IMG/VR virus record: IMGVR_UViG_3300032214_001486
Coordinates: 32,001 to 96,000 of that record
From: a virus
Reading direction: 5' to 3' (one strand)
Length of the DNA: 64,000 nucleotides
Every line of letters begins with the position of its first letter. The stretch's first letter is position 1. Positions 25,496 to 54,105 of this stretch are shown here, in pieces. A model generated the notes under the pieces. That model made no database searches. It was not told where the DNA came from and saw nothing but the letters and a program-made list of their open reading frames with translations. The translations under genes were made by a program, and so were the position numbers.

Positions 25496-26080
25496 CTAAT
25501 CGTCAACCTTTGCCTTCCTCCGCTTGCTTGTCACCGGGTAGTGCTTATTCATCCAGGCTTTCACGGCTCCGTAGCGTTCACCGTAGGGTATCTGCCCGTA
25601 GTCGTGCGCGACATACATATCCTTTAGGTATTTCGCGGCGTCCTGACTCCAGATGCGACGGGCTTCTTCCTGCTGTTCGATGGTAATGGCGCCCGTATCT
25701 GCTCGGTCTGCGAGTACCCGTTGAATGTCCGAGACAAACATTCGCTTTACGAAGATGCCCTGTAGGGCGCCGTAGAAGTCTGCCGCCAAGCTACCGGGGG
25801 AAGGGGCCGAGCCGCGCACAAGGAACCCGCCATCGCCCCTTTCAGGGTAAGAGCTTTGTGCCCACGCTGCGATGTTCTCCCGCGTCGGGGGCAGCCGTAG
25901 TCCCGGCTGGGCCTCAACCGCAGCGTAGATCAGCCGGGCGGTCTTGCTTTCGTTCTGGTCTACCCATTCGCGCAGACCAGGGCTCTCCCGCTCCCGCAGC
26001 GTGATCTCCCGGTCTACCAGCCGCCACAACGCCGCCGCTTTCAGCCGCAACGCAAATTCTGTGTCTCGGTCTGTGGTCAT
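25496..26080 (-). CDS. hypothetical protein with shared N-terminal module
   Basis: PGLREWVDQNESKTARLI; ATGA overlap with upstream gene. Confidence 0.75.
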   Translation of the reverse strand: MTTDRDTEFALRLKAAALWRLVDREITLRERESPGLREWVDQNESKTARLIYAAVEAQPGLRLPPTRENIAAWAQSSYPERGDGGFLVRGSAPSPGSLAADFYGALQGIFVKRMFVSDIQRVLADRADTGAITIEQQEEARRIWSQDAAKYLKDMYVAHDYGQIPYGERYGAVKAWMNKHYPVTSKRRKAKVDD

Positions 26081-28539
26081 GTCGTCCTCGGTCCTTGTAG
26101 CTGCTCGTCGGTGAAGGTGCCTTCTTCTTCGCCGTTAACGTACTCAACGTACAGGCCGGGCAAGTTTTTACTTATGCGTGTCGATCCTACGCTGACCCGA
26201 TAGAACCCCAACCCGTCGTCTGTCTTGTCACCTTCGGCCCCTCTGTTCTCGTCGGTGTTATCGTCGTCGTCAGACCTGTACTTTTTGCGAAACCCAATAT
26301 CTGTGTGCCACGTTACGGGTTGCTCTGACAAAAGCTGTGTCATTCTGTTCGCATAGCCATCGCTGCCCGGCAAGTAAGGCCAATATGCCCGCCGTAGGAA
26401 GTAGTCGCTTTGGTCCTCTACGGATTGTGTGGGGAGAACCCTTCCAAACGCCTTAGTGAAGTCCGCCGCATCAGCGACAGCCCAAGAGGGTGTGTAGCGG
26501 GTCGTGTCCCGCCGCATTGAGTCAAACCGGCGTTTAAGGTAATCTGCGATATTCTCTCCCCCCTCTTTCCGGTCACGCGCACCCCGAGCTTTCTTATACA
26601 CTTCGTCTTGGATGCCGTAATACTTATGGATAAATGTTGCGAAGGTGTAGTACATATTCACGACGAGCAGAGCCAAATACTTGGCCCATCGACTACGGAC
26701 GCTTTTGACCTGTTCGACTACATCGGAAGGCAGCAGATTTTCGCACAGCAGCACATCGGGGTTGACGATCCAACCGTCCTTAGAAACGCAGAATTTCGCA
26801 AAAACATCGGCCACGACTTGCAAATCGTTATCCAGGGCCCCAAGGCGACCCGCGGCTGTATCGACACCAGACGAAAATAAGCAAGCGTCGGCCTGTCTGT
26901 AATTCAGGGCCCCCCGGCTTTCTTTCACAAGCAGGTCAAGGCAATCATTGACCTTCCGCGCTGCGGCTTGATACTCCGCGAGTAGCTGGGGGTTACAGAA
27001 AGAGAAGGGCTGGATATTCCCCCTAAAGTTCTTTGCGTACAGCCGAGCAAAGGGGTCGTTACGCCACGTTTGCTCGTCAAGATCGTAGGAGAATGGGCCC
27101 AGCAGCAATTCATTGAGGCGGTGGAAGGCATTGAAGAACGTGTGTGGTGTCTCCCGCAAAGGATCGCCGGGTTTGGCCTTGGAGCCTTGTAGCGGGGGGT
27201 GTACGAAGTCAATAAGCACCACAGACTTCCGCTTTTTGGCTTCCTCAGACGCCCTCTTGTAGAATTCCTCGCTCCGATAATTGTTAGGGGCGATCATAAA
27301 GGACAGGCGCAGCGAGGGTAGCCCCCGCTCCAAAGCGAGGCGATCAACGTGGTCTAAGCCCTTAGAGAATTTCTCTTTAGCGTCCTGCCGGAGCATGGGC
27401 CCAAAGTAGTAGTGAGCGGCGCCCTGCTTCCCCTTGAATTCATTTTGCCAGGAGAGCAGAGGGTTTGCACGGTAGCCGTTGGCCCGCGTTTTCGATTGCG
27501 TGTCGGGGGCGACCTTGCGGAAGCCACTATCCCCCTCATAAGGGATGAATTTCTTGTCAAAGAGGTTAGGTAGGTCCAGCCGGATACGGTAGCCCGACTT
27601 CGTGGCCTTTGTCGCTTCGATGACACCGCAAATCTGCGCTTCGGTAAATCCACCAAGTCTCTTAATGACAGCGCAGACGCGATCTCCGGCCGCTATCCCC
27701 TGACTCGACATACGCCCCGCGATCTTGTCTTTGTGTTCTTGCAGGTAAGCGTTGATCAGCAGGTCAATCTTGGTTTGGTTCTTTTCAAGGAATACCTTGT
27801 ACTCAGGGCTGCTTAGGTACTGATTGCGTCCGCCATATTCCTCGTATTTCCCCTCCATGTAGGCTAAGTATTCTGTGTAGGACTGTAGGCTCGGCTGTTT
27901 TTCCGGTATGACACCGGGTACACCTGGGCGCAACCGTTCTTCTGTGAACCCAGCATTGAAGGCAGTATACTGATCAATTGAGGTGCCGGCCGTGAATACC
28001 ACGCAGGGACCGCTGGTGAGGCGGTCTATTGCGATATTCTGAGCAGGAACGTGAGACAGACCCGCCTTGCCGGACAGGAGGCCGATTTCGCGCGCAGCCC
28101 GTTTCGTTTCATCCAGGCTGAGCTTGCCTTGGGGTGTGACCGTAGCAGCGAGGGTGTTCACCAGCATCTTTAGGTCAGCAGCTAAGCCTTTGTACTGGCC
28201 CCGAGCCGACCCCACAGACCACTCCCTGTTTCCCAGGATCAAGGTGCGGCCCGCCTTGCCATCCCGCATGACGCTGGGCGGGTTTGGGATGAATTCGTAA
28301 AGGCCGTCTGCCTGCGGGTCTGGACTTAGGTCCACACCATAGGCCAGCAGGACCGGGCGCAGCAGCAGAGGCAGGAACGGGTCAAGCCCTACAGCATCCC
28401 GCGCGTCCAAGGCGTCTGCGATTAGATCAAAGGTACGGGGTATATTTTGATCTACCCACGCTTTCAGCGCAGGTTTACCCTTGATCTTGGTCGATAACCG
28501 CCTGTAGACGCGGCCTTGTGTTTCGTTGACGGCTTTCAT
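26077..28539 (-). CDS. large multidomain hypothetical protein (shared N-terminal module, internal RANGYRANP)
   Basis: PALKAWVDQNIPRTFDLI; GAGGACACCGACC-ATG leader. Confidence 0.8.
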   Translation of the reverse strand: MKAVNETQGRVYRRLSTKIKGKPALKAWVDQNIPRTFDLIADALDARDAVGLDPFLPLLLRPVLLAYGVDLSPDPQADGLYEFIPNPPSVMRDGKAGRTLILGNREWSVGSARGQYKGLAADLKMLVNTLAATVTPQGKLSLDETKRAAREIGLLSGKAGLSHVPAQNIAIDRLTSGPCVVFTAGTSIDQYTAFNAGFTEERLRPGVPGVIPEKQPSLQSYTEYLAYMEGKYEEYGGRNQYLSSPEYKVFLEKNQTKIDLLINAYLQEHKDKIAGRMSSQGIAAGDRVCAVIKRLGGFTEAQICGVIEATKATKSGYRIRLDLPNLFDKKFIPYEGDSGFRKVAPDTQSKTRANGYRANPLLSWQNEFKGKQGAAHYYFGPMLRQDAKEKFSKGLDHVDRLALERGLPSLRLSFMIAPNNYRSEEFYKRASEEAKKRKSVVLIDFVHPPLQGSKAKPGDPLRETPHTFFNAFHRLNELLLGPFSYDLDEQTWRNDPFARLYAKNFRGNIQPFSFCNPQLLAEYQAAARKVNDCLDLLVKESRGALNYRQADACLFSSGVDTAAGRLGALDNDLQVVADVFAKFCVSKDGWIVNPDVLLCENLLPSDVVEQVKSVRSRWAKYLALLVVNMYYTFATFIHKYYGIQDEVYKKARGARDRKEGGENIADYLKRRFDSMRRDTTRYTPSWAVADAADFTKAFGRVLPTQSVEDQSDYFLRRAYWPYLPGSDGYANRMTQLLSEQPVTWHTDIGFRKKYRSDDDDNTDENRGAEGDKTDDGLGFYRVSVGSTRISKNLPGLYVEYVNGEEEGTFTDEQLQGPRTT

Positions 28540-28555
28540 GGTCGGTGTCCTCGAC

Positions 28556-29611: not shown

Positions 29612-29638
29612 GGTCGGTGTCCTCGGCGGGTTTGGGCC

Positions 29639-30229
29639 TTAGCGGCGTTGTCCGTTTTTGCGTTCCAGCGTCGGGTAGGGGGAGCGGGGGCCGAGCCAGC
29701 GCCCCGACGTGACCTCCCCTTCGGAGCCATCCCAGGTGCCCCCAAGGATCACGGCTGTACCCCCGATCTTTGCTTTGCCTGTGATGCGGGCGCGCCCGCC
29801 GACGTGGGCCTCTCCTGACACAATCGCGTGTCCGCCGACCTGAGCGACCCCTTTAACGGTTGCCCGCCCGCCAACGTGCGCGTTATCAGCGACGATAGCT
29901 TGCCCGCCGACGTTGGCTTGATCGGTGACCCGAGCGTTGCCGTAGATTTGGGCCCGCTCCAACGCGCGAGCGTTGCCGTCAAGGGTTGCAGCCCCGTAGA
30001 TTAGGGCTTCTCCCTGCGTGGTTGCGTTGCCCTTCACGGTGCCCCGTTCCCACACATGGCGGAAGCGGGAGATCCCTAATGCCCGGCGGATCTCCCGTTG
30101 AACCCAATAAAACCTACGGTATGCGTACTGCCACAACCGGGGGCGGCCGGCTAACTTCGCCCCCAGGGCTTCCCAGGCGCGCACGTCCCGGTCATCCTCG
30201 GGGGCGAACGGGGTTTTGATCGAAGGCAT
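29639..30229 (-). CDS. hexapeptide beta-helix protein, C-terminal paralog of 23251..24366
   Basis: V.G.A.V repeats, GGTWDGSEG; ends RKNGQRR. Confidence 0.8.
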   Translation of the reverse strand: MPSIKTPFAPEDDRDVRAWEALGAKLAGRPRLWQYAYRRFYWVQREIRRALGISRFRHVWERGTVKGNATTQGEALIYGAATLDGNARALERAQIYGNARVTDQANVGGQAIVADNAHVGGRATVKGVAQVGGHAIVSGEAHVGGRARITGKAKIGGTAVILGGTWDGSEGEVTSGRWLGPRSPYPTLERKNGQRR

Positions 30230-30277
30230 CCATCACCCTAAACAGCGTGAGCGAGCCTGCGAGGGCCAGCGCGGTAT

Positions 30278-30661: not shown

Positions 30662-30668
30662 TAGGCAC

Positions 30669-43368: not shown

Positions 43369-46038
43369 TTAGGCCCTTTTCAGCCATTCGATTGTGTCAA
43401 GGCGGCCGTCCTGCTCCAGCGTTTCGATCAATTGCTGGTAGCACTTGGGGCACGACTGCGCGACCTTTAGCTCTTGGCGTAGCTTCTGCTCTGCGGTCTG
43501 GATCGACTGACGCTCGGGGTCAGGTATATCCAAAACCACAGACAACAGGCGGCTGAACGCCGGGATCAAGGGGTAGGTGCGGAAAGCTATATCCTCTCGG
43601 ATAATCGAAAATCCCTCGTCGTGACCCTCCCCGTGACTAACTCCGTAGACGTAGTGGGCTAACTCGTGGCAGATCAGGCCGTGCAGGTACGCTGCTAAGT
43701 CCCGAGAGTTGTTATACCCTTTTTTCGCCTCCTTGAAGAAGAAGGGGTTTACTCCAATTGTGCTGATCTTGGAGATGTAGATAGCAATAACATCGTCGTT
43801 AAGGACGAAGCCGGGGTATACCCGTCCCGTCACCTGCCCATAAGTGTCGATCACCATGCGAAGAAGTTGATCCCATAGAACAAGCACAGGAAGATACTTA
43901 GCGTACTCTTTCTTGAATTTCCGGGCGCCCTCCGAATTATACTTGCCGTCTTTGTTGAGAAATTGCTTTCGACTAATCAGTAAGCCCGCGAAAGCCCCAA
44001 AGGGGTTGCCAAAGAGGCGCTGACGTTTCGCGTCGTCAATATCGTATTGATCTACCAGACCAAAGCGCAGCAGGTCGTTTAGAACGTCTGTCAAGGCGGA
44101 CTCAACGCTGAGGGCGAAGCTGATACCGCCTACTTCCGGCCGCGCTGCGTTGTCCTGTACGGTATCCAATGCCTGATACAGCAGATTTAGATCAGCCAGA
44201 TATAGGTGGTATGGGTGTCTTAGTTGCTCGGCCAAGATAGAGAATACATCGCGGTGTATCTCGCTATACCGTTTTTTGCCTGCAATTTCATTGTACGCTT
44301 TGAGGTAGTCCGTCAGAACAGTGACGCTGATCCGGTAAATTTCTATGGGGTCCACTCTCCGCTGCTCTGCTTCCCTGATTTCGTCCTCTTGGTCTAAGGC
44401 TTTATCCATCGCCTTTTCAGTCGGCGTGGCTACCCGTTGTGGGCTTTGGGGTGTCTCTGGCACATGATCCGACGCTACATCACCGGCTTTTTCTTCGCGT
44501 ACTTGTGCTTTGAGCTTAGCCCCCAGCTTTCGCTCCCCCCCTGCGGCTTGTTCTTTGCGGAAATCGCGGGCAACCTTAGCTCCCGCCTGAACAATGCTAA
44601 GTAAGTCAGCGTCGCCCAAAGCCTCAGCGACTTTTTTCTGAATTTCCTCTTGTTCCGGCGGCATAGTCGAAGATGCGCGCGGGTCGTACATTTCGTCCTC
44701 TTTGTCCTCTTTGACCGTTACTTTCTTCTCACAGAAGTCACGGAAAGAGTTAAAGGCGCTATGCTCGGCGCGTGTGTTGAATTTGTCCCGCCCGGTGTTA
44801 AAGGGGTATCCCTCGGTCCCCGGCACACCCGACCTTCCTTGCAGCGCGGACAGCCCCGGAGAGTCTAAATCTACTGTCATCCCTCGACGCCCATCAAAGT
44901 AAGGGGTGACAACCTCACCATTAAGGGTTAAGGTAATGTCCGGCAGATTATTGAGGGCCAGCAGTCTGCGAATTCGGACTTCAATGGGGTCATAATCCTC
45001 AACGACGGTGTAACCGTCTTTATTTAGGTAACTCACTCGGTCAAAGTGAGGCACCTTAAAGACAGTTAGCTCTACGCCGGCAACGTAGGGCATACCCGTT
45101 TCAATGGGTTCCTGCTTGTTTAACTGCTCAGAAGTAACGAACAAGTCTTGGGTCCGAATTTCCCACGACCTGTCCGCAGAGCAGCCAAGGATAACAGCCT
45201 TGGCTACACCAAAACCTCCCGTTGTGCCCGAAGTCGCATAGTCCAGCGTATAGTCATAATCTAAGGTCTTGTCATAAGACTTTTTTGGCTGCTGGAATTG
45301 AAGCAAGCCATTGAGCCTAATGTAGTAAGCGCCGTCATTTGCGTTGAGCCCCCGCTTGTATCTCCGCACAGCTAAACTAATGGAGGCATCAAAGTCCCCG
45401 CGGGCCAAGGCTTCGTTGTACTTATCGCTTTCCCCGATGCTAAGGAAAGATTGGATAATCTTTGCGTCCATGCCCGTGCCGTTGTCTCGAAAGATCAACG
45501 CGTTTTGGGTACGGTCTACCACCACATCAAAACGGCCCTCTCCCTTCTTGATTTTGCGCTGCTCGACCGCTTTGCGTATCGCATCCACAGAATTTTGTAG
45601 GGCCTCGCGCACCGCGAGTAGAGGTAGGTCTTTGCTTTCGTAGGTATTTTTAGTAAGTAGCTCCCACATGCGCGGTATGTTCGCCCCGTAAGCCAAAACC
45701 GGGCCCTTACCGTTGCGGCGCAGGCGGCGCAGGTGGCGCAGGACGGCGACCGGGTTGGTGCGGGCGTCTACCGCTGCGGCTGCTTGCTTGGGCGTGCGGC
45801 GTACACCCGCCTTCACCACCTCGATATGCTGCTGGCGAGTCAACGCAGGGGCCATGCCCCGCAGACGAGCACGAGCCCGGACGCGAACCGGGTCCATCTG
45901 ATCCAACATCGCTTGCAGCAGCCCCAGGTAGGGCTTTAACTCAGGATTGGTCGAGATACCGGGGATCTCCCGCTCGGCGTACTGCAAAAACTCTTGCGTC
46001 GTCATCGCACGGGTGTCTTGTGCTGGTGTCCAAGCCAT
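43369..46038 (-). CDS. GHKL (HSP90/MORC-like) ATPase fused to C-terminal HExxH zincin domain
   Basis: REALQNSVDA, DNGTGM, GESDK, GGFGVAK; CHELAH..HDEGF. Confidence 0.8.
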   Translation of the reverse strand: MAWTPAQDTRAMTTQEFLQYAEREIPGISTNPELKPYLGLLQAMLDQMDPVRVRARARLRGMAPALTRQQHIEVVKAGVRRTPKQAAAAVDARTNPVAVLRHLRRLRRNGKGPVLAYGANIPRMWELLTKNTYESKDLPLLAVREALQNSVDAIRKAVEQRKIKKGEGRFDVVVDRTQNALIFRDNGTGMDAKIIQSFLSIGESDKYNEALARGDFDASISLAVRRYKRGLNANDGAYYIRLNGLLQFQQPKKSYDKTLDYDYTLDYATSGTTGGFGVAKAVILGCSADRSWEIRTQDLFVTSEQLNKQEPIETGMPYVAGVELTVFKVPHFDRVSYLNKDGYTVVEDYDPIEVRIRRLLALNNLPDITLTLNGEVVTPYFDGRRGMTVDLDSPGLSALQGRSGVPGTEGYPFNTGRDKFNTRAEHSAFNSFRDFCEKKVTVKEDKEDEMYDPRASSTMPPEQEEIQKKVAEALGDADLLSIVQAGAKVARDFRKEQAAGGERKLGAKLKAQVREEKAGDVASDHVPETPQSPQRVATPTEKAMDKALDQEDEIREAEQRRVDPIEIYRISVTVLTDYLKAYNEIAGKKRYSEIHRDVFSILAEQLRHPYHLYLADLNLLYQALDTVQDNAARPEVGGISFALSVESALTDVLNDLLRFGLVDQYDIDDAKRQRLFGNPFGAFAGLLISRKQFLNKDGKYNSEGARKFKKEYAKYLPVLVLWDQLLRMVIDTYGQVTGRVYPGFVLNDDVIAIYISKISTIGVNPFFFKEAKKGYNNSRDLAAYLHGLICHELAHYVYGVSHGEGHDEGFSIIREDIAFRTYPLIPAFSRLLSVVLDIPDPERQSIQTAEQKLRQELKVAQSCPKCYQQLIETLEQDGRLDTIEWLKRA

Positions 46039-46650: not shown

Positions 46651-48120
46651 TCAGCGACGACGGCGGGGGTTCGACTTGACGTTCTCGCCCAGCATTTCGT
46701 CAATGACTTCGTTGATCAGCTTCTTGATCTCCGCTTCCAATTGAGCGTCGCTCATGCCCTCGCCCGACACAGCCGGGCCGCGGGAAACCGGCGCGACGAC
46801 CGGAGCGGAGACAACGGGCGACGGCGCAGGCGCGGGAGCCTCGGGGATAACCGGGGCCGGCGGCGTTGTCTCGATGATCGCCTTGGCGACTTCGGGCGAA
46901 CCCGCAGCAGCAGGACGAATGGCGGCCAGCAGAAGTACAATGTTCTTTTTGATGTTTTCGATAAACTCTTTTTGGAATTCCGCTTTGGTCTGGTTTTCTT
47001 TGGGCGCAGCCTTGGCCGCGTAACGGGCAAGACCAGCATAAACCTTATCTACCTCAGAAGGTGTACCCCCCTTCCGTTTGATCATTTCGCGTAGGGCGGC
47101 CTCGATTGCGGGTGTAATATCCACAGGATTACGCCGGGCACCGTTAGAACGTGTCAGACGGTTACGGGGGTTCCCCAGGATCTTAGCAAAGGCCGCGTCA
47201 ATCTCAGCCTGTTCGCGCTCGGCCTCTGTCATTTCCGGCGCAGCCGCAGGGGCAGGTACAGCAGACGACTCATTCATAGCAGCCAAAAGGAGATCAGACC
47301 CGTCATCTTCCTCGACGGCTTCGGCCTCGGGGGGCAGCGGCGAAGGCTGGGAGTCTACAATGTCCACGTCTACGCCGGCCTTATTGGCGATCTGCTCCAC
47401 CGTATCGGCCACGTTCTCGGAAATGGCCTGGGCCTGCTCGGCGGCGGCCGTCGCATCCTGGGCCGCAGCTACGGTCACCGGGACCGCATCGGCGGGCTTT
47501 TGCTTGCGGGTCCGGGTGACCTTTTCCGCACCCTCCACGACAGCGGCGGCGTTGTTCGTCACGCCCTGTAGACGCTTGGCCGCCTCTAACTGCGTTTTAA
47601 GATCCTCCAACGCCTGCGAGTACGCCACGGGAGGGCGGCCAACACGGGCAGGGAGGGCAGTCCAATCCTTGCCTGCGCTCGTCTTAAAGACCTTTTTTTG
47701 CAGCTCAGCGATGTTCCGCTCGATAGCCGCTACCGAGTCGGTCGTGTCCTGCTGCTTTGTCTCAACGACCGCCGCGGCGGCCTTTGTAATCTTGGCCGCA
47801 GCCTTTTGACCCTGGGCCTCGGTCAGATTGACGGTCGGAGTCGGCGGAGGGGAAACAGCCTCCTGCACCGCGGGGCTTTGCATACCCCCAGCCATAAAGT
47901 CCCTGTGGTATTCGCCGCCGGGAAGGAAGGCATTTTCGTCCAGGTTATTGTACGCGGCCAGCCACTTTAGGTAGGTCGCAACCGCACCAGGGGCCGGGTT
48001 GCGGCGGCTCTTTGGGTTGGCGCGGGGTATCCAAGAGGGCGGCGGCTGGGCCGTCCAGGCCGAGCTAACCGACACCCACCGCTCTCCACGCTGTTCGTGA
48101 CTGCTGTTCCGACGAGCCAT
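46651..48120 (-). CDS. low-complexity core-like protein with multiple RxN(P) motifs
   Basis: MARRNS, RANPKSRRNP, GNPRNRLTRSNGARRNP, KSNPRRRR; GGAGG RBS. Confidence 0.75.
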   Translation of the reverse strand: MARRNSSHEQRGERWVSVSSAWTAQPPPSWIPRANPKSRRNPAPGAVATYLKWLAAYNNLDENAFLPGGEYHRDFMAGGMQSPAVQEAVSPPPTPTVNLTEAQGQKAAAKITKAAAAVVETKQQDTTDSVAAIERNIAELQKKVFKTSAGKDWTALPARVGRPPVAYSQALEDLKTQLEAAKRLQGVTNNAAAVVEGAEKVTRTRKQKPADAVPVTVAAAQDATAAAEQAQAISENVADTVEQIANKAGVDVDIVDSQPSPLPPEAEAVEEDDGSDLLLAAMNESSAVPAPAAAPEMTEAEREQAEIDAAFAKILGNPRNRLTRSNGARRNPVDITPAIEAALREMIKRKGGTPSEVDKVYAGLARYAAKAAPKENQTKAEFQKEFIENIKKNIVLLLAAIRPAAAGSPEVAKAIIETTPPAPVIPEAPAPAPSPVVSAPVVAPVSRGPAVSGEGMSDAQLEAEIKKLINEVIDEMLGENVKSNPRRRR

Positions 48121-48179
48121 AAGTACCTCCAAAGCGAAATCGAAGTGTCCCTAACCCGGTTCAGGGCGCACGCAAGGCA

Positions 48180-48689
48180 TCATCGCACCCGCGAGGCCCG
48201 GCGTCTATACCCTTTGCGGGCCTTGTTTGCCTTGACGGTCGCAGTTTTAGGGCCCCCGGCCTTCGCTTGCACCGCTAATGCCGCCGCTTGGATTATTTCG
48301 TCCCCGTGCTCTTTTAACTGCTCGGCGACTAAGGAAGCAAGGGCCTTGGCCCGGTCGTCGTCAGACAGAAACAGCCGCGCAGCCGGGTTGAGGGTCGAGA
48401 GCTTGCGTAAAATCTCAATCTGCCTTTCCGGGGTCGCTGCTACGAATTCATCCACATGCCCCTGTACTTTCTTGATTACTGTGGGCAGAACAAGGGGGAG
48501 AATTGCACGCGCCGCTGCGACTAAGGCAGGATGGTTGGCACGAACCGGGGGAAGGGGGGAGCCCACCACGATCACATCAAGACCAGGGCGTTTAAGGGCG
48601 GCGGCGTCTAACAAGGCATCGGCCTTGTTTTTGTACGGGCCGACGTTCCCGTAAGCGTTCCCATTTTTTCTGATCTCGATGCGATACAT
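48180..48689 (-). CDS. basic protein with RxN motifs
   Basis: RKNG, RANHP, KANK; Arg-rich C-terminus. Confidence 0.7.
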   Translation of the reverse strand: MYRIEIRKNGNAYGNVGPYKNKADALLDAAALKRPGLDVIVVGSPLPPVRANHPALVAAARAILPLVLPTVIKKVQGHVDEFVAATPERQIEILRKLSTLNPAARLFLSDDDRAKALASLVAEQLKEHGDEIIQAAALAVQAKAGGPKTATVKANKARKGYRRRASRVR

Positions 48690-48718
48690 GGTGGGCTCCC
48701 AAGGTGCGACGGCTTACT

Positions 48719-49891
48719 TTACTTCCGGGCGCGGAAGCTGATTTTGCGACCATCGCGGGTACGGAAGCTCACGTTGCTGTTGCGACGGCTGTTCGCACGG
48801 AGCGCCATCGACTGCACGCGCTCACCCGCCGGCAGGACGTTATCGAGCAGGGCCCGGCTGGTGGCCGGCTTGCGGCTGCTGACGCGGTAGACCCACGCTT
48901 CCCAATTGCGACCGTTGACCGCCCCATCCACAATGAAGCCGTCCACGACTTCACCCAGACCGGCGTTCTTGAATTCGGCAAGGCTTTCATCACCATCGTC
49001 GATCATGTCCAACGCCATTTTCTGACTAATCCGGTGATCCGCGACCTTCGCCGCAGTACGGAGCAGAGTCTTGGCGTCAATGGCCGCCGCGCGAGCGGTC
49101 GCGTAAGGCCCGAGATCGGCCCCGCGGTTGAGGTCGAATTCACCGTTTACCAGCACGGCGACGCGGTAGATACCCACGCCGGCCCGCCGACCGCCCTTCG
49201 CCTTGTGCTTCTCGCTGATTTTCACCCGAGTAGCAGTAGAGGGCACAATCCCCTTGCGCGAAGCACGGCCCTTGGGGGCCTTGCGCTCCGCAGGAAATGC
49301 CTCTTTCATTCCCGCGCGCACAATAGCCAGCCGTAGCTCCTCGGCCGTCAATTGCGAGTAGCTCGGGATCTTCAGACTCTTAGCCTCCTTCAGCAGACCT
49401 TTACGGTCCAGCCCGCTGATCTCCTCTTGAATTTCTTGGCGCGTTTGAGCCCGCTCACTCTTGGGGGCTTTGTCCGGCAGCGGGTAGGAAACATCCACCT
49501 CAGCCTTGACAACGGCCGCCAGCAGATCCTTCGCGCCCATCTTCGATAGGCCGGTCAGGCCCAGATCTTTTGCATCTGTGCGAAGGATATTTAGCTTTTC
49601 TTCCCCCTTGTACTTAGCGTAAGCAGCACGGACTTCCGCCCGATACTGCTTGCGCTGCTCCTTGATTTCACTCAAAGTAAAACCGCCGGAGACAGCCTGA
49701 GCGGCGGGCTTCGAGGCGGCAGGCTTCGGAGCCGGGGCGGGGGCGGGGGCGGGCGCCGCGACCGGGGCCTTGGGGGCCTTGGGGGCAGCGGAGGCGGCAG
49801 CGGCTTGAGCCTTTGAGGGGCGGTCGCGCTTCTTTTTTTCGCCGGCCTTAGCCTCGGTTTTGGTGTCGGTGCTGTTTCGGAAAACCAACAT
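48719..49891 (-). CDS. very basic DNA-binding/core-like protein with two Rho-N/HeH-like motifs
   Basis: LRTDAKDLGLTGLSKM..DLL and LLKEAKSLKIPSYSQL..EL; FRNS N-terminus, RANSRRNS near C-terminus. Confidence 0.7.
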   Translation of the reverse strand: MLVFRNSTDTKTEAKAGEKKKRDRPSKAQAAAASAAPKAPKAPVAAPAPAPAPAPKPAASKPAAQAVSGGFTLSEIKEQRKQYRAEVRAAYAKYKGEEKLNILRTDAKDLGLTGLSKMGAKDLLAAVVKAEVDVSYPLPDKAPKSERAQTRQEIQEEISGLDRKGLLKEAKSLKIPSYSQLTAEELRLAIVRAGMKEAFPAERKAPKGRASRKGIVPSTATRVKISEKHKAKGGRRAGVGIYRVAVLVNGEFDLNRGADLGPYATARAAAIDAKTLLRTAAKVADHRISQKMALDMIDDGDESLAEFKNAGLGEVVDGFIVDGAVNGRNWEAWVYRVSSRKPATSRALLDNVLPAGERVQSMALRANSRRNSNVSFRTRDGRKISFRARK

Positions 49892-49923
49892 TACAGTCTC
49901 CTGTCGGTGCGGGGGTGTGGGGG

Positions 49924-50307
49924 TTACTGCGAAACCATCAGAGCCAATTCGACGGTCACCGCATTTCCGGCGGGTGCTGTGACGGCGAGCCGGATAAACT
50001 TGCTCGGCACGACCGCCACAGGAATTACGGTTGGAACCCCCGGTGGAAGTACAGTAGCAGATACCTCTAAGGGGATCAAGGTCTGAACCGCGTTGGCGTC
50101 AGAAATTGAGGCTTGAACCGAAACGGTCGCCCCCGCAGCCCCCGCCGTCTGACTCGCATAGACCAGAAGGCGCGGGGCGCCTCGGTTTTGGAGATAGGTG
50201 AAGAACGTGGTAGCCCCCGCATTGATCACGCGCGCTTCCCAATACTGAGAAAGCTGCGTGGCTGCGACGACTATAGCGCCCGTGGCGGTTGCGTTTACAT
50301 GCGACAT
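49924..50307 (-). CDS. small beta-rich virion-like protein
   Basis: All-beta pattern, KFIRLAVT; in capsid-like operon. Confidence 0.6.
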   Translation of the reverse strand: MSHVNATATGAIVVAATQLSQYWEARVINAGATTFFTYLQNRGAPRLLVYASQTAGAAGATVSVQASISDANAVQTLIPLEVSATVLPPGVPTVIPVAVVPSKFIRLAVTAPAGNAVTVELALMVSQ

Positions 50308-50316
50308 ACTGCCCCC

Positions 50317-51003
50317 TTAGTAGTACGACGCCATGAGTCGGAAATTGTTACTCGGGACGCCGGCCACAAGCCAGCCCGGCTCGTCTATGAGAGGCGAGCT
50401 ACGGTACTGAAAGCGAAGCTCGCAGCGCCAGTAACGGATGGGGTAGCCCCCACCAGTCGGCATGAATTGGGCGACGGCGGAAGGCATCGTGCCGACAAAA
50501 TCGGTCGTTATGTCCTCGTCGTCGGACACCTGCTGAATGGCGTTGGGGTCGTTGATGCTTGCGTATTCCCGCGCAAGCACCCGGAACCCAAAGGACCGAG
50601 CCCATGTGCGGAAATTCAGGTTGTAAATCTGGACCCACAGCTTGCCCGCAGCCCCCAACGGCCGCCAGATCGGGTATGTACCCGTGTTCTGGACGACCGT
50701 TGGCGTGGCTACAGGGGGCCCAAACGTCTGCGGCGAACCCGTCAGATAGGCTTGACCCTGGCCCCGGTCCATCGCTGCGCCACGAAGCTCGGGGCGCAGG
50801 TCGAAGGTAGCAGAGCGCCAAACCGCCTGGGCGTAGACCAGGGGCTCGGCAAGCTCCAGCGCGTACTGCAATTCGATGGGGGTGATATTCCACAACGCCG
50901 TAGGCATGTTTGCCGGATACGGGTAGGGAATGGCCCCCAGCGGATTTGCGAGGAACGCAGCATCCGAAAATTGGTCGGGATTGCGACCGGGGATTTTTGT
51001 CAT
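50317..51003 (-). CDS. virion-like protein (minor capsid or penton candidate)
   Basis: Follows the capsid-like pair; W.S.TFDLRP..RYWR.ELRF. Confidence 0.55.
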   Translation of the reverse strand: MTKIPGRNPDQFSDAAFLANPLGAIPYPYPANMPTALWNITPIELQYALELAEPLVYAQAVWRSATFDLRPELRGAAMDRGQGQAYLTGSPQTFGPPVATPTVVQNTGTYPIWRPLGAAGKLWVQIYNLNFRTWARSFGFRVLAREYASINDPNAIQQVSDDEDITTDFVGTMPSAVAQFMPTGGGYPIRYWRCELRFQYRSSPLIDEPGWLVAGVPSNNFRLMASYY

Positions 51004-51005
51004 GC

Positions 51006-51701
51006 TTATTGACCGACGGTGTAGTTGCTGGGCGCGCGAACCTCGACACAATGCAGAGAAATGTCGATCCGCAGAGAGGCGAGCAGCGGCGTGATCCCAA
51101 GCTGGACGGACGCGCCCGGCTGAATGACATAGCCCGTGCCGCCGACTTCGCCGGGGTTAAAGCCGTCACCGATACAGGTTGTCGCCAACCGCGGGCCGGT
51201 CATCAGCTTGTCGCCTGTCGAATACTCGATGCGGAACAGGTACGTTCCGTTGGCTTGCACGCCCAGCGGGAAAGCGTTGCCGACCCCCGTATTGAACGCA
51301 CCGCCGTTCATGGCGATAAGGTAACAGGGAATGTCAAAGTTGACAATTCGAATAGCCTCCTGCCCAACCGTATAGTCCGGGTCACCCGACGACAAAGTAG
51401 CGCCGTAGAACCGGGTCTGTGTGCCGATATTGCCGGAAGTAGGCAGATACGGGGCGGTCGGGAACACCGGGACACGAACAGCGCGAGGGGTCTGCGGCTT
51501 TTGCGCGGCCTGCTGCGTCACCTGCAAGAGCGCCTGCAATTGCTGGCCCTGGGCCGCAACCTGCTGGGCTTGAATATGTAGCTGGGCCTGTAGGGCTGCG
51601 ATGTAATTACCGACCGCACCGCTATTCCCGTAGGGGTCAGCCCCGGCAACCAGCGCGCCCATGCCGGGCATTTGCGTAACCGCGGATCGAAAGTCAGACA
51701 T
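51006..51701 (-). CDS. putative second single jelly-roll capsid protein
   Basis: Q-rich N-terminal helix, then beta-rich RIVNFD..FRIEY..LM.GP..G..PG..YVIQPG. Confidence 0.5.
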   Translation of the reverse strand: MSDFRSAVTQMPGMGALVAGADPYGNSGAVGNYIAALQAQLHIQAQQVAAQGQQLQALLQVTQQAAQKPQTPRAVRVPVFPTAPYLPTSGNIGTQTRFYGATLSSGDPDYTVGQEAIRIVNFDIPCYLIAMNGGAFNTGVGNAFPLGVQANGTYLFRIEYSTGDKLMTGPRLATTCIGDGFNPGEVGGTGYVIQPGASVQLGITPLLASLRIDISLHCVEVRAPSNYTVGQ

Positions 51702-51837
51702 GATTTACCCCTTTGTGGGAGTACGGAGAGGGAGACAGGGGGGAGTATACCCCAAGGGGGGCCCCGAGGGGAATAGGCAAACCGGGGCGGGCCTGGGGGC
51801 CTGGAGGCTTGGGGCCTGGGGGCCTGGGGTGTAAATG

Positions 51838-51880
51838 CACAAAAGTAAGACGGCCCGCCCGCGGAGTCCGGGGCGGGCCG
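51838..51880 (-). terminator. intrinsic terminator or attenuator after major capsid-like gene
   Basis: CGGCCCGCCCCGGACTCCGCGGGCGGGCCG stem-loop followed by TCTTACTTTT. Confidence 0.65.
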
Positions 51881-51928
51881 AATGGGGAGTATCGGAAGGG
51901 GAAACCGACCCTCCACCGGGGGTACAGA

Positions 51929-52621
51929 TCAGCCGATCTCGATCACGTTCTTGTAATAGCCCAGGAGAGCGACCTTGATCGCCAGGGCGAAGTTCGCGCC
52001 TACGGCCGGGGCGCGGCTACCAAAGCGGAGGATGGTCGAGAAGGTCGTGGTGGCCGGGAGGGCGACCGCGTGCTTCCGGTACATCCAAACGCTACCAGCA
52101 CCGTTGTTCATCGCGCCGCTGTTCGCGCCGGCCGCGTTCTGCGACACGGAACCAAACGCGCCGCCACCAGCGCCGATCATGTGGATCGGGCTAATGTCAA
52201 CGGTGGTCTGGGTGAAGTCCCAGCTCAGTACGCCGTTGTTGAGCACGTTCTGGAGGTTGCCGATCTTCTCGGGGGTGTCCAGGGGAGCCGCGAGGGAGCT
52301 ATCGAGGCCCGTGCCGCAGTAGACGTGGCACGAAATGCCGAATACGTCGAACGCGACACCGGCCGGGATACGACCGCCTTCCTTCAGAGAGGTTTCGGCG
52401 ATTGTCAAGGCTTGGCCGAAGCCTTGCCCCTGCTGCCCGAGCGGGGTCGCAAACAGACGGTTGGTGCTGTTGGCGAGCGCCGCGGTCGCCGCAAAGCCCT
52501 GGGTACTCCAAATACTTTGCTCGCCGTAGCGGAAAAGCTGGGTGGGTTGGCGGAACGGAACCGGGGGGATCGAAATGTCGGGCGGGGCCACGAGGGCCAT
52601 GCCGGGAGTGCCGTAGGACAT
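51929..52621 (-). CDS. putative major capsid protein (single jelly-roll type)
   Basis: 230 aa, beta-rich; LF..P.G..LT.AETS..GG.IP..F.V.GI pattern recalled from SJR capsid proteins; strong C/G third-position bias; own terminator. Confidence 0.6.
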   Translation of the reverse strand: MSYGTPGMALVAPPDISIPPVPFRQPTQLFRYGEQSIWSTQGFAATAALANSTNRLFATPLGQQGQGFGQALTIAETSLKEGGRIPAGVAFDVFGISCHVYCGTGLDSSLAAPLDTPEKIGNLQNVLNNGVLSWDFTQTTVDISPIHMIGAGGGAFGSVSQNAAGANSGAMNNGAGSVWMYRKHAVALPATTTFSTILRFGSRAPAVGANFALAIKVALLGYYKNVIEIG

Positions 52622-52692
52622 GGGAAATCTCCAAGGGGGGAAGGAGCGAGGGGGAGGGGTTGCACCGAGTACCAATTACCCGGCGCAGAGGG

Positions 52693-54105
52693 TCAGAACG
52701 CCGAGCCCGCAAAGAGGGTAGCACCAAGCTCCCCGCTGCTGAGGGCCAAGCCGTTCATATCGAGCGCCAAACCGGCGGTTTCACCCGCGGTCGCGGCAGA
52801 GGGGGTAACAACGGAGGCCGGTACAGTGGTCTGCGCGCCGGGGTTGGTCCCCGCCGAAGCAGCCGCCGCGGCGGTCTGCTGCTCAACCGTGGCGATAGCC
52901 TGGGCCTTGATTTGCTCCAAGAGAGCGACGCGCTTCTCGGGGGAGAGCGCCGCGATCTTCGCAAACCGTTCCCAGCCGACCAGACAGATCAACCAACCGA
53001 AACGGTGACCGGGGCGGCCCGCGAGCGAGCTAATACCCTGACCGTTATAGTTGATCGCCTGCGTCGGAGCGTCCCCGAAGGTGCGGTGCCAAGCGTGCTG
53101 ACCCGAAAGGGCAGCTTGGCCCTCCTGTACGGAGAGATCGGCGGGGGCGTAGTAGGCATCGGCAAGGCTGGCTCCGCTGTAATCTACAGCGGAGCCCTTA
53201 CCGAAAGGGACGACATCATAGGCCATCCCGTCGCCAAAGCCGGCAGTATCGGTGAGGGCAAGGCCCGACATATCGGTGAGAGCGAGGCCCGACATATCAG
53301 TGAGGGCGAGGCCATCAAGGTCGTCGTCGTCACCCGACAGATCATCGTCGTCGTCACCGTCAAGGTCGAGATCGCCAAGATCGCCGGCCTTGTCGGACAG
53401 GAAGCGGTAAATGTCGAGCGCGCCGCCTACAAGCAGAGCGCCGACCGCAACCTGATTACGAAGCTCTTTGGAGCCGACCGGGACAAAATTCAGGACAGTG
53501 GCGACAGCGGCGCCCTGTACGGTGAACTTGACCGGCGAAATGGCGCGGAGGGCCGACTTAACAGCCGGGACCGCGCTCAGACCGCGCATCAGGCCGTAGT
53601 GGACAGCGCCCACCGCGACACCGACGAGGATCGGAGAAATGTACCCCGCGACAGTGTTACCGACGACCGGGATCTTGCGGGCCAAGCCCTCGACCGGAGC
53701 GGTAAACTGGTTGCTGAACGCGCCAAAAGCGTTCCGGCGTACAACCTTCTTACCCCGGCGGCGGTTGCCGTGGAGGTTCATCAGAAGGGTGTTCCGGCGC
53801 ATACGGCGCATACCGTTCCGGTGCATACCGCGCAGCCCATTCCGGCGGCCGTTGCCGTGAAGGTTCATCAGCAGGGTGTTCCGGCGCACACCGCGGCGGG
53901 CGTTGCGGCGACCGTTGCCGTGAAGGTTCATCAGCAGCGTGTTCCGGCGGTGGGAAGTGTTCCGCCGACGAGCAGCCCCCTTCCGCTTGCGGTTGGTACG
54001 CAGCTTTAACCCAGCGAGAGCGCGAGCAGCGCCCCGCTTCGGGTTAGACTTGGATACGAACAACGCGCCGCTGAGCGGTGCGCCGTTACGGAACATGAGG
54101 GGCAT
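52693..54105 (-). CDS. tripartite core/membrane protein: RN-repeat basic N-terminus, TM segments, acidic GLALTD repeats
   Basis: RRNTLLMNLHGN x3; hydrophobic helices; GLALTD x3; AAAGGAG RBS; directly upstream of MCP candidate. Confidence 0.8.
   Translation of the reverse strand: MPLMFRNGAPLSGALFVSKSNPKRGAARALAGLKLRTNRKRKGAARRRNTSHRRNTLLMNLHGNGRRNARRGVRRNTLLMNLHGNGRRNGLRGMHRNGMRRMRRNTLLMNLHGNRRRGKKVVRRNAFGAFSNQFTAPVEGLARKIPVVGNTVAGYISPILVGVAVGAVHYGLMRGLSAVPAVKSALRAISPVKFTVQGAAVATVLNFVPVGSKELRNQVAVGALLVGGALDIYRFLSDKAGDLGDLDLDGDDDDDLSGDDDDLDGLALTDMSGLALTDMSGLALTDTAGFGDGMAYDVVPFGKGSAVDYSGASLADAYYAPADLSVQEGQAALSGQHAWHRTFGDAPTQAINYNGQGISSLAGRPGHRFGWLICLVGWERFAKIAALSPEKRVALLEQIKAQAIATVEQQTAAAAASAGTNPGAQTTVPASVVTPSAATAGETAGLALDMNGLALSSGELGATLFAGSAF

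What the first reader, a model, noticed from the sequence alone, without database searches (positions are those of the whole stretch)
26077..54105. Recurrent R-x-N(P/G/S) motif at termini and domain borders: candidate virion-targeting or maturation signal
Seen: 54105 (MFRNG, KSNP, RTN, about ten RRN/HRN), 51003 (GRNP), 49891 (FRNS; RANSRRNS), 48689 (RKNG, RANHP, KANK), 48120 (RRNS, RANP, RRNP x2, RSNG, KSNPRRRR), GHKL ATPase (RTNP..RRNG just before the ATPase domain), large SNF2 (MRRND; KNNG; ENPRR), Nudix (MNPR; YRNG at C-terminus), 30229 (RKNGQRR at C-terminus), 28539 (RANGYRANP between two halves). Replication genes lack this terminal clustering. Established analogies: T4 gp21 cleaves L/I-x-E sites and adenain cleaves GG sites in packaged proteins. 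Inference: an Asn-directed code that tags basic DNA-condensing peptides and enzyme cargo for packaging and later release.
Basis: partly seen in the sequence, partly recalled or inferred. Interest (0 to 1): 0.85.

Follow-up and report, generated by a model that had tools for sequence, protein, structure and literature searches.

The report
Conserved basic-Asn motif in virus proteins
A four-residue signature (basic, basic or any, Asn, then Pro/Gly/Ser/Thr) recurs far above chance, and is conserved in relatives, at the ends and flexible linkers of core, capsid-arm, membrane-tail and enzyme proteins of an undescribed group of large jelly-roll-capsid viruses; it is most likely a processing or packaging signal, but cleavage is unproven.

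Summary
In the 26-54 kb proteins, R-x-N-[PGS] occurs 17 times against 4.3 expected and RRN 14 times against 1.8. The replication block and two other gene blocks show no excess. The excess survives shuffles that keep local composition. Mirror, scrambled, Gln and Asp versions are not enriched, and codons vary, so this is an ordered, Asn-specific protein motif. It replicates in nine related metagenomic virus loci, including a 39%-GC one, but not in 34 loci that share only a distant GHKL homologue. Orthologues keep it: all six motif Asn are invariant in the 46651-48120 family, against 24% of other Asn. R-R-N is the only conserved island in the predicted disordered GHKL linker. About 84 of 96 homologue clusters of the 52693-54105 core-like protein carry R-R-N arrays. 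Instances cluster at protein termini.

The function is not shown. My best reading (about 0.4) is a recognition or cleavage site for a virion maturation enzyme acting on DNA- or membrane-bound precursors, as in adenovirus. An uncleaved docking or hinge motif is nearly as likely. Candidate enzymes exist but are unproven. The scan noted this motif only on this same genome, not on other DNA. Two tools (look-up of encoding contigs, complex prediction) were closed.

The parts
52693..54105 (-). Core-like protein. It has an N-terminal leader ending F-R-N-G (54082-54093) and K-S-N-P (54040-54051), then a basic region with R/H-R-N-x units (53788-53967). Hydrophobic segments, an acidic repeat and a conserved C-terminal domain follow.
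   Evidence: There are 96 homologue clusters, and about 84 keep an N-terminal leader plus R-R-N arrays.
50977..50988 (-). G-R-N-P in the N-terminal arm of capsid-like protein 50317-51003.
   Evidence: A second N-P about 20 aa in (L-A-N-P in the window) aligns with x-R-N-P-G in the homologues of L087, L096 and L099.
48719..49891 (-). Basic protein with two weak Rho_N/SAP-like helices. F-R-N-S lies at aa 4-7 (49871-49882), and R-A-N-S/R-R-N-S at aa 365-372 (48776-48799) just before a basic C-terminus.
   Evidence: Homologues in L087 and L089 end with K-Y-N-P followed by a basic tail.
48180..48689 (-). Small basic protein with R-K-N-G at aa 7-10 and R-A-N-H-P at aa 50-54.
   Evidence: The first site is probably a turn inside a small repeated domain, so this is a weak member.
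46651..48120 (-). Ala/Pro-rich protein with six motif sites: aa 3-6 (48103-48114), 33-36 (48013-48024), 39-42 (47995-48006), 324-327 (47140-47151), 329-332 (47125-47136) and 482-485 (46666-46677). G-N-P-R lies at 47164-47175.
   Evidence: In orthologues of 61-87% identity the motif columns are 86% invariant against 41% elsewhere, and 6/6 motif Asn are invariant.
45709..45762 (-). Linker of the GHKL protein (43369-46038) holding R-T-N-P (45751-45762) and R-R-N-G (45709-45720). It lies between an N-terminal helical module and the ATPase domain.
   Evidence: AF2 pLDDT is below 50 for ORF residues 79-121. N is invariant and R-R 87-93% conserved among 15 homologues down to 30% identity, while flanks are 50% or less.
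43369..44121 (-). C-terminal zincin-like domain of the GHKL protein, with invariant H-E-x-x-H, a downstream His, R-E and C-x-x-C. It is a candidate DNA-dependent metalloprotease.
   Evidence: Invariant columns in A1 and A7. All 3 of 3 members give a sub-threshold Pfam SprT-like match (E 0.023). This is inference only.
38817..43247 (-). Large SNF2 helicase with M-R-R-N-D at the N-terminus (43233-43244) and E-N-P-R-R near the C-terminus (38853-38864).
   Evidence: Pfam SNF2-rel_dom 1.5e-26. Orthologues in L010 and L007 also carry basic-N-[PS] sites within their first 30 aa. The start codon is uncertain.
38374..38820 (-). Nudix hydrolase with M-N-P-R at the start and Y-R-N-G at the end.
   Evidence: Pfam NUDIX 5.5e-17. 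The motif is not seen in the L010 Nudix, so this is a weak member.
29651..29662 (-). R-K-N-G followed by Q-R-R at the C-terminus of beta-solenoid protein 29639-30229.
   Evidence: Conservation was not tested.
27460..27486 (-). R-A-N-G-Y-R-A-N-P at aa 352-360 of the 820-aa protein 26077-28539.
   Evidence: That it lies at a domain border was not tested.
61861..62751 (-). Transglutaminase-core / papain-like thiol enzyme with a C-terminal hydrophobic anchor, inside the conserved morphogenetic module. It is a candidate processing enzyme.
   Evidence: Pfam Transglut_core 3.5e-10. It is 47-50% identical in L087 and L089, with Cys110, His156 and Glu175 invariant. A role in motif recognition is inferred, not tested.
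49924..52675 (-). Four consecutive small beta-rich capsid-candidate genes: 51929-52675, 51006-51701, 50317-51003 and 49924-50307.

Best explanation
The window belongs to a 105-kb virus genome of an undescribed group. Its features are jelly-roll capsid candidates, many membrane-anchored proteins, Arg-rich core-like proteins and a late block of large enzymes.

In this lineage a short linear motif is kept by purifying selection. Its consensus is [R/K]-[R/x]-N-[P/G/S/T/A]. Arg is preferred at positions -1 and -2, Asn is essentially invariant, and a small residue follows. It occurs at four kinds of place:
(a) within the first 5-10 residues of several proteins;
(b) immediately before C-terminal poly-Arg tails;
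(c) bracketing internal basic stretches;
(d) in disordered linkers between an N-terminal module and the main domain.

I read it as the recognition site, and probably the cleavage site, of a virus-encoded maturation enzyme. That enzyme would trim short N-terminal leaders, detach N-terminal modules and free or unfasten basic DNA-binding segments while the substrates sit on the genome or the inner membrane. This is the logic of adenovirus protease on pVII, pre-mu, pVI and pTP, and of prohead proteases on T4 and phiKZ-type internal proteins.

Shown here: the motif is real, ordered, Asn-specific, lineage-wide, conserved, terminal-biased and in a low-confidence linker.

Inferred: virion location of the bearers, cleavage, which bond is cut, and which enzyme does it.
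For: Statistics: the excess over global and local shuffles is specific to the forward, Asn-containing order. Codons at the motif vary like background, so selection acts on the protein.

Replication of the pre-specified patterns in relatives whose neighbouring proteins are mostly not alignable ([RK][RK]N[PGST] unless stated):
- L007: R.N[PGS] 9 vs 1.9
- L010: RRN 10 vs 1.0
- L089: 8 vs 0.7
- L096: 7 vs 0.8
- L088: 6 vs 0.5
- L094: RRN 9 vs 0.7
- L093 (39% GC): 9 vs 0.9
. Thirty-four loci sharing only a distant GHKL homologue stay at expectation.

Conservation: A2 and A1 statistics. In the core-like family, [RK]N[PGSTA] is 503 vs 149+-12. Arg is 2.1-2.4x enriched at -1 and -2 while Lys is not. 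Pro, Thr and Gly are 2-3.4x enriched at +1.

Propeptide-like anatomy:
- The GHKL motifs lie in a pLDDT<50 linker after a helical N-module.
- Three orthologous large proteins have a roughly 45-aa N-terminal mini-domain followed by R-x-N-P-G.
- Two L093 paralogues share a domain that starts right after the motif. One is preceded by a 74-aa domain and the other by only M-K.
- Core-like homologues that lack the first 9-residue leader start 2-5 residues before the next conserved block.
- L010 has a 979-aa protein made of two modules, each ending in the K-N-P-poly-Arg tail, one of them internal.

Candidate enzymes sit in the conserved module: a TG-core thiol enzyme with an intact Cys-His-Glu triad and a zincin domain fused to the GHKL ATPase with sub-threshold SprT-like matches.

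Precedent: SPN3US gp245 cuts after A-x-E, removes N-terminal propeptides of 20-254 aa, and multiple motif copies occur in the propeptides (PMC10052503). Adenovirus protease processes IIIa, VI, VIII, VII, mu and TP and uses DNA as a cofactor (PMC3386624).
Against: There is no proteomic or experimental evidence of cleavage or of virion location.

No homologue of any known capsid maturation protease was found by Pfam or PHROGs.

In C-terminal tails the motif precedes only 4-20 Arg-rich residues, and in several N-termini only 2-6 residues would be removed. That is a small pay-off for proteolysis and fits a hinge or docking element just as well.

In the core-like arrays Arg often follows the Asn (32% at +1), so the small +1 residue is not universal.

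Some GHKL homologues without an N-terminal leader still keep R-R-N right at the N-terminus (L078, L084). The motif is therefore useful without anything to detach.

If basic tails face the DNA, a single-pass TG-like enzyme would have its catalytic domain on the other side of the membrane (inference).
Confidence: 0.4

Rival explanations
1. The motif is an uncleaved docking or hinge element. The Asn plus small residue forms a turn or helix cap that delimits a basic DNA-binding (or membrane- or capsid-binding) segment. Alternatively, it is bound by a pocket on a capsid, scaffold or packaging protein. Either way it tethers core proteins and enzymes to the genome or shell without any proteolysis.
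For: The motif is nearly always adjacent to Arg-rich stretches. It directly precedes C-terminal poly-Arg tails that follow hydrophobic anchors. In the GHKL model a short helix (res 107-118) ends just before N-G, as a helix cap would. Leaderless GHKL homologues keep R-R-N. Arg-rich nucleic-acid-binding peptides with a functional Asn are known, for example the HIV Rev ARM (own knowledge).
Against: Generic electrostatic binding does not explain several features: the strict Asn invariance with no Gln or Asp equivalent, the strict order with no excess of the mirror form, and the preference for Arg over Lys. Several sites are not in Arg-rich context, such as the capsid N-arm and the N-termini of 48719-49891 and 52693-54105.
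Confidence: 0.32
2. The Asn side chain is the substrate of the conserved transglutaminase-core thiol enzyme. The enzyme would deamidate it or cross-link it to Lys, giving covalent stapling or charge switching of core proteins.
For: A TG-core enzyme with an intact triad is a conserved member of the morphogenetic module. A separate M15 lysin exists, so this enzyme need not be the lysin. TG-fold enzymes act on side-chain amides, and Lys-Asn isopeptides stabilise HK97 capsids (own knowledge). The motif is Asn-specific.
Against: Known transglutaminases use Gln, not Asn, and no acceptor-Lys pattern was seen. The enzyme could equally be a peptidase or a cell-wall hydrolase. Nothing links it to the motif except co-occurrence in L087 and L089.
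Confidence: 0.08
3. The protein cleaves itself at Asn through succinimide formation (asparagine peptide lyase chemistry), as in nodavirus coat protein, reovirus mu1 (Asn-Pro) or FlhB/YscU (N-P-T-H).
For: Asn is followed by Pro, Gly or Ser, the residues that favour succinimide chemistry, and viral maturation by this route is known (own knowledge).
Against: Known lyases need a folded catalytic environment. Here the sites lie in low-confidence or disordered segments and in tandem arrays. Arg often follows Asn in the arrays.
Confidence: 0.05
4. The pattern is a by-product of composition, low complexity or repeat slippage, with no function of its own.
For: The 52693-54105 protein holds a recent triple 13-residue repeat, and R-R-N arrays vary in number between homologues.
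Against: Local-composition shuffles and the mirror, scrambled, Gln and Asp controls argue against it. The excess persists without the repeat protein. Motif columns are conserved in non-repetitive proteins. The excess replicates in a 39%-GC relative. Codons are diverse.
Confidence: 0.03

Closest known systems
Adenovirus protease (adenain/AVP) and its substrates pVII, pre-mu, pVI, pVIII, pIIIa and pTP
   Same: A short consensus recurs in Arg-rich DNA-condensing core proteins, in capsid-cement proteins and in an enzyme-like protein. Basic peptides are bracketed by sites, and pre-mu has a basic part next to a hydrophobic part. Substrates and enzyme work on DNA (PMC3386624).
   Different: The consensus here is basic-basic-Asn-small, not (M/I/L)-x-G-x-G. 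No adenain (clan CE) homologue was found. The virus is prokaryote-like, with a tyrosine integrase and an M15 lysin. Cleavage is unproven.
Prohead proteases of T4 (gp21, L/I-x-E) and phiKZ/SPN3US-type jumbo phages (A/S/G-x-E)
   Same: One tripeptide code marks many internal head and ejection proteins. N-terminal propeptides of 20-254 aa act as targeting parts, and several motif copies occur per propeptide (PMC10052503).
   Different: Those are HK97-fold tailed phages with an S80/U9-type protease, and P1 is Glu. Here the capsid candidates are jelly rolls, no such protease is present, and the key residue is Asn.
Polyprotein processing of core proteins in ASFV (pS273R, G-G-x) and poxviruses (I7, A-G-x)
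   Same: Large internal-membrane viruses whose core proteins are made as precursors cut at a dipeptide code. Their particles carry SNF2-like and other enzymes (own knowledge).
   Different: They have eukaryotic hosts, a Ulp1-like protease and different sites. Nothing here shows packaging of the enzymes.
Asparagine peptide lyases (nodavirus and tetravirus coat proteins, reovirus mu1 Asn42-Pro43, FlhB/YscU N-P-T-H)
   Same: They give Asn-directed bond breakage, often at Asn-Pro, used for virion maturation (own knowledge).
   Different: Those are single sites inside folded domains. Here there are many sites, in disordered basic segments and at termini.
Arginine-rich nucleic-acid-binding motifs (for example the HIV Rev ARM, which contains R-R-N-R-R-R-R) and protamine-like viral core proteins
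   Same: Arg runs with an embedded Asn, and a likely role in genome binding or condensation (own knowledge).
   Different: ARMs have no fixed order with a following small residue and no terminal bias. Here many sites lie outside Arg runs.
Sphaerolipovirus-type capsids (HHIV-2, P23-77; single jelly-roll major capsid proteins, inner membrane)

Membership tests
Substrate code of a capsid maturation protease (adenain, T4 gp21, phiKZ gp175/SPN3US gp245 type) | One short consensus recurs in several different structural or internal proteins, above chance. | tested here: met
   Searches show the forward motif enriched 4-10 fold in the window and nine related loci, with controls flat.
Substrate code of a capsid maturation protease (adenain, T4 gp21, phiKZ gp175/SPN3US gp245 type) | Sites lie in N-terminal propeptides, linkers or termini rather than inside folded domains. 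| tested here: met
   Terminal bias is p=0.001 in the window and p=0.0005 in L010. The GHKL sites lie in a pLDDT<50 linker. The depletion of order-promoting residues nearby is only modest.
Substrate code of a capsid maturation protease (adenain, T4 gp21, phiKZ gp175/SPN3US gp245 type) | A cognate protease is encoded in the morphogenetic module. | tested here: inconclusive
   No known prohead protease or adenain family was found in Pfam or PHROGs. Two candidates exist: a TG-core thiol enzyme and a zincin domain on the GHKL protein.
Substrate code of a capsid maturation protease (adenain, T4 gp21, phiKZ gp175/SPN3US gp245 type) | Bearers are virion proteins and are found cleaved at the site. | not testable with these tools
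   This needs particles or expression plus mass spectrometry.
Asparagine peptide lyase | A single Asn sits in a folded environment that catalyses succinimide formation. | tested here: not met
   Sites are multiple, in low-confidence or disordered segments and in arrays.
Arg-rich nucleic-acid-binding motif / protamine-like core protein | A long, strongly basic, low-complexity segment. | tested here: met
   This holds for the N-terminal region of 52693-54105 and its family (Arg 22%, Lys 11%) and for the C-terminal tails. It does not hold for several other sites.
Arg-rich nucleic-acid-binding motif / protamine-like core protein | Function depends on charge, so residue order and Asn identity should be loose. 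| tested here: not met
   Order and Asn are strict, and the mirror, Gln and Asp forms are not enriched.
Single jelly-roll capsid viruses with inner membrane (sphaerolipovirus-like) | The major capsid proteins have a jelly-roll fold. | tested here: inconclusive
Single jelly-roll capsid viruses with inner membrane (sphaerolipovirus-like) | An FtsK/HerA-type packaging ATPase lies next to the capsid genes. | tested here: inconclusive
   There is no Pfam hit and no Walker A motif in the called ORFs of the module. Gene calls are heuristic and not every ORF was scanned.

The most novel reading that the evidence does not exclude
A widespread, undescribed lineage of large (40 to over 100 kb) jelly-roll-capsid, membrane-containing prokaryotic viruses builds an adenovirus-like nucleoprotein core. 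It uses an Asn-directed processing code (R-R-N-small). A non-canonical, possibly DNA-dependent, enzyme reads the code: either the zincin fused to a GHKL ATPase or the membrane-anchored TG-core thiol enzyme. That enzyme releases protamine-like peptides and matures packaged chromatin-type enzymes (SNF2, GHKL).
Probability: 0.3. Interest if true: 0.85.

Novelty: new variant of a known kind. Interest (0 to 1): 0.68.

Why it matters
If the motif is a processing or packaging code, it gives a sequence-only way to list the internal or cargo proteome of a whole uncultured virus lineage. That lineage has about 100 clusters of the core-like protein and of the capsid candidate across marine, freshwater and sludge metagenomes.

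It would also define a protease specificity (P1 Asn, or dibasic followed by Asn) not known for any capsid maturation system. And it would extend the adenovirus, ASFV and poxvirus logic of a processed nucleoprotein core to viruses of prokaryotes.

Even if uncleaved, it is a clean example of a lineage-specific short linear motif under strong selection in virus proteins. It comes with ready-made mutational targets, the invariant Asn residues.

Tried and rejected
Searches that found nothing:
- Single-protein searches of IMG/VR with the capsid candidate and with 46651-48120.
- tblastn of the GHKL protein and the capsid candidate against 50,697 phage records.

The long contigs behind P0001, P0231 and P0275 could not be fetched, and I used the search for related loci instead.
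The TG-like enzyme with the core-protein N-terminus was never tested.

Alignments and models:
- Alignment A3 was too diverse for locus searches, so I replaced it with A8.
- An HMM of the GHKL N-terminal helical module finds no other protein in this genome. At least this leader is not shared by sequence.

Ideas rejected:
- A DNA-level motif is rejected because codons are diverse.
- Composition or local-bias artefact is rejected.
- Long plus-strand ORFs at 50-54 kb are rejected as genes by codon-position GC.

Family and structure searches:
- Pfam and PHROGs gave nothing for most structural and core proteins.
- Foldseek of the 900-aa GHKL model matched only Hsp90/TRAP1 over the ATPase and middle part.
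- A PDB sequence search with the TG-like enzyme and with the zincin profile gave nothing significant.

Literature:
- Five full-text searches found no description of this virus group or of an Asn-type maturation code. Absence from the held library is not proof of novelty.

Host:
- MAG labels of related contigs (Alphaproteobacteria, Gemmatimonadota, proteobacterium) are too weak for a host call.
Full report
**What the element is**

The window is bases 32001-96000 of a single 104,974-base contig. Plus-strand genes at 0.4-14.5 kb encode replication and DNA-metabolism functions. These are a family-A DNA polymerase with an N-terminal UDG domain, an N6/N4 methylase, thymidine kinase, an SbcC-like ATPase and a tyrosine integrase.

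From about 64 kb down to 20 kb everything is on the minus strand.
- First comes a block of proteins with hydrophobic anchors and a transglutaminase-core enzyme.
- Next are a core-like protein and four small beta-rich genes.
- Next are three basic, Ala/Pro/Lys-rich proteins.
- Next are a GHKL ATPase, a 1476-aa SNF2 helicase, a Nudix hydrolase, several large proteins without family, and a second SNF2.

Codon-position GC supports the minus-strand frames over the long plus-strand shadow ORFs at 50-54 kb.

No terminase, portal or HK97-type protein turned up in the Pfam and PHROGs scans. An M15 peptidase outside the window is the likely lysin. There is no nucleotide or protein match among 50,697 deposited phages.

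The genes at 49.9-63.7 kb are syntenic in seven distinct metagenomic or MAG contigs, fetched as ten loci (L087-L089 and L093-L099; L097, L098 and L100 duplicate L089, L087 and L088).

**The observation**

All listed instances are present. Against within-protein shuffles, the 18 proteins of 26-54.3 kb give these counts:
- R.N[PGS]: 17 against 4.3 +- 2.0
- RRN: 14 against 1.8
- [RK][RK]N: 18 against 5.4

The replication block (2 against 1.5), the 20.7-26 kb block and the 54.3-64 kb membrane block are at expectation. The tandem-repeat protein contributes only one of the 17 R.N[PGS] hits.

First, an unbiased count of all tripeptides ranks RRN fourth in the window block and first in relative L010. 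K-N-P ranks third there, and N-P is the first or second dipeptide in L007 and L010.

Second, I shuffled only within 20-residue blocks, which keeps local composition. [RK][RK]N[PGST] remains at 12 against 1.6, or 7 against 1.2 without the repeat protein. The mirror image, a scrambled order, and the Gln and Asp versions all sit at expectation.

Third, I applied the pattern unchanged to related genomes, as described next.

**Replication in relatives**

The GHKL protein has 114 homologues, and loci around them were fetched. The nearest relatives show the same excess, although almost none of their neighbouring proteins align with those of the window:
- L007 (GHKL 40% identical): R.N[PGS] 9 against 1.9
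- L010/L014 (32% identical): RRN 10 against 1.0

The 34 loci that share only a distant GHKL homologue show no excess.

Loci found through the core-like protein and the capsid genes also replicate it, using [RK][RK]N[PGST] unless stated:
- L089: 8 against 0.7
- L096: 7 against 0.8
- L088: 6 against 0.5
- L094: RRN 9 against 0.7
- L093 (39% GC): 9 against 0.9, with some Arg replaced by Lys but Asn-Pro kept

.

The motif is therefore a property of a virus lineage, not of GC content. Codons at the motif vary as in the rest of the genes, so it is selected at the protein level.

**Conservation at fixed positions**

In six orthologues of 46651-48120 (61-87% identity), the 28 motif columns are 86% invariant against 41% for the other 461 columns (permutation p < 1e-4). 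All six motif Asn are invariant, against 24% of the 17 other Asn. The mid-protein cluster is an invariant island between variable flanks.

In 15 GHKL homologues down to 30% identity, the linker is 50% conserved or less, except for R118 (0.87), R119 (0.93) and N120 (1.00). The next residue varies among Gly, Ser, Ala, Asn and Pro. More distant GHKL homologues have a different N-terminus and no such motif.

The core-like protein 52693-54105 has 96 homologue clusters. About 84 share a two-part N-terminal leader, with a first part ending R-x-N-G and a second ending S-N-P. A hypervariable basic region with up to 13 R-R-N-x units follows, then hydrophobic segments. Over 84 basic regions:
- Asn makes up 9.7% of residues.
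- Arg is 2.4-fold enriched at -2 and 2.1-fold at -1, while Lys is not enriched.
- Pro, Thr and Gly are enriched 3.4-, 2.3- and 2.1-fold at +1.
- [RK]N[PGSTA] occurs 503 times against 149 +- 12.

These sequences are related, so this last figure is descriptive rather than a formal test.

Further fixed positions:
- An N-P about 20 residues into the N-terminal arm of the capsid-like protein 50317-51003. It is preceded by Arg in three of four relatives.
- R-x-N-P-G right after a roughly 45-residue N-terminal mini-domain of an orthologous protein of at least 890 aa in L088, L096 and L099.
- K-K/S-N-P directly before poly-Arg C-terminal tails of several small anchored proteins and soluble basic proteins in L087, L089, L010, L012 and the window.

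.

**Anatomy**

Sites are terminal. In the window, 27% lie within 15 residues of an end against 7% expected (p=0.001). In L010 the figures are 33% against 4%.

At least nine different N-termini in five genomes carry the motif within their first 5-10 residues.

In the GHKL model the segment with both motifs (ORF residues 79-121) has pLDDT below 50. It separates a helical N-terminal module (residues 16-70) from the ATPase. Order-promoting residues are only modestly depleted around sites in general.

Several arrangements look like propeptide borders.
- Two L093 paralogues share a domain that begins immediately after the motif. One is preceded by a 74-residue domain and the other by two residues.
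- Core-like homologues that lack the first nine-residue leader begin two to five residues before the next conserved block.
- L010 has a 979-residue protein made of two modules that each end in the K-N-P-poly-Arg tail, so one tail is internal.

**Mechanism**

The data demand a reader that recognises order, Arg rather than Lys, and Asn rather than Gln or Asp. That favours a specific binding site, on an enzyme or a partner, over generic charge.

The best-supported model is a maturation or processing code. It resembles the A-x-E code of jumbo-phage prohead proteases, which removes N-terminal propeptides of 20-254 residues that contain several motif copies (PMC10052503). It also resembles the adenovirus protease, which processes Arg-rich core proteins and capsid cement proteins and uses DNA as a cofactor (PMC3386624).

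Two candidate enzymes exist.
- The first is a transglutaminase-core thiol enzyme with an invariant Cys-His-Glu triad and a C-terminal anchor. It is 47-50% identical in L087 and L089.
- The second is a C-terminal zincin domain on the GHKL protein itself, with invariant H-E-x-x-H, a downstream His, R-E and C-x-x-C. All three sequences tested hit Pfam SprT-like below threshold. SprT/Spartan enzymes are DNA-dependent proteases (own knowledge).

None of this shows cleavage, and which bond would be cut is open: it could be after Asn or between Arg and Asn.

The main rival is an uncleaved hinge or docking element next to DNA-binding tails. It is supported by the tiny size of what cleavage would remove at many sites, and by leaderless GHKL homologues that still keep the motif.

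Asn-directed cross-linking or deamidation by the TG-core enzyme, and self-cleavage at Asn, are possible but less likely. An artefact of composition is essentially excluded.

**What I could not do**

Longer related contigs and an enzyme-peptide prediction are therefore missing. Gene calls in the loci are heuristic.

**Verdict**

I put cleavage at about 0.4 and an uncleaved docking or hinge role at about 0.3.

The motif and the virus group appear undescribed in the libraries searched. Within this scan the motif was noted only on this same genome.

Noticed in passing
window 43369-44121 (-): The GHKL ATPase carries a C-terminal zincin-like domain with invariant H-E-x-x-H, a downstream His, R-E and C-x-x-C. 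It gives sub-threshold SprT-like Pfam matches in 3 of 3 homologues. A GHKL-metalloprotease fusion is unusual.
   Followed up: partly
window 61861-62751 (-): This transglutaminase-core thiol enzyme has a C-terminal hydrophobic anchor and an invariant Cys-His-Glu triad. It is one of the best-conserved genes of the morphogenetic module (47-50% identity in L087 and L089). The annotated ORF start at 62970 is probably about 73 codons too far upstream.
   Followed up: partly
window 51929-52675 and L093:7777-9205: The most conserved capsid-module protein (60% identity across relatives) is present as two tandem paralogues in the 39%-GC relative L093.
   Followed up: no
window 50113-54009 (+): Long plus-strand ORFs (299, 223, 431 and 535 aa) overlap the minus-strand capsid and core genes. 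Codon-position GC favours the minus strand. AT skew is positive here, unlike in the other minus-strand genes.
   Followed up: partly
window 33413-35773 and 35308-37299 (-): These two large ORFs without family overlap by 466 bases, so the upstream part of 33413-35773 is probably not coding. L007 and L012 proteins gave weak matches to both ORFs (E 0.001-0.55), so they may be distant paralogues; no direct comparison was run.
   Followed up: no
L010:12960-14759 vs window 38817-43247: Residues 101-363 of the window's large SNF2 protein are homologous (E 2e-18) to a separate 599-aa protein in L010 that is not the L010 SNF2. This suggests domain shuffling among the late-block enzymes.
   Followed up: no
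window 45800-46038 (-): An HMM of the GHKL N-terminal helical module finds no other protein in the 105-kb genome. At least this leader is not shared by sequence with the other large proteins, contrary to a neighbouring first-reader note.
   Followed up: partly
window 383-3091 (+): A family-A DNA polymerase is fused to an N-terminal uracil-DNA-glycosylase-superfamily domain and a 3'-5' exonuclease domain.
   Followed up: no
genome 2724-4742 (L090) and 102272-102916 (L092:6272-6916): A third SNF2-type helicase and an M15_4 peptidase (the likely endolysin) lie outside the window.
   Followed up: no
L007:4795-5916 and L010:8469-9578: A roughly 370-aa protein with an H-E-L-R-H motif sits between the SNF2 and GHKL genes in both relatives. 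It has no counterpart in the window and no Pfam family.
   Followed up: no
window 56009-58149 (-), L087, L089, L096: Several anchored proteins of the module begin with a similar short N-terminus, M-R-F-x-P-S-x-Y-S. It is conserved between relatives and distinct from the Asn motif.
   Followed up: no
L093, L094, L095, L096: Related capsid modules sit on contigs binned into Alphaproteobacteria, Gemmatimonadota and 'proteobacterium' MAGs. This is a weak host hint only.
   Followed up: no
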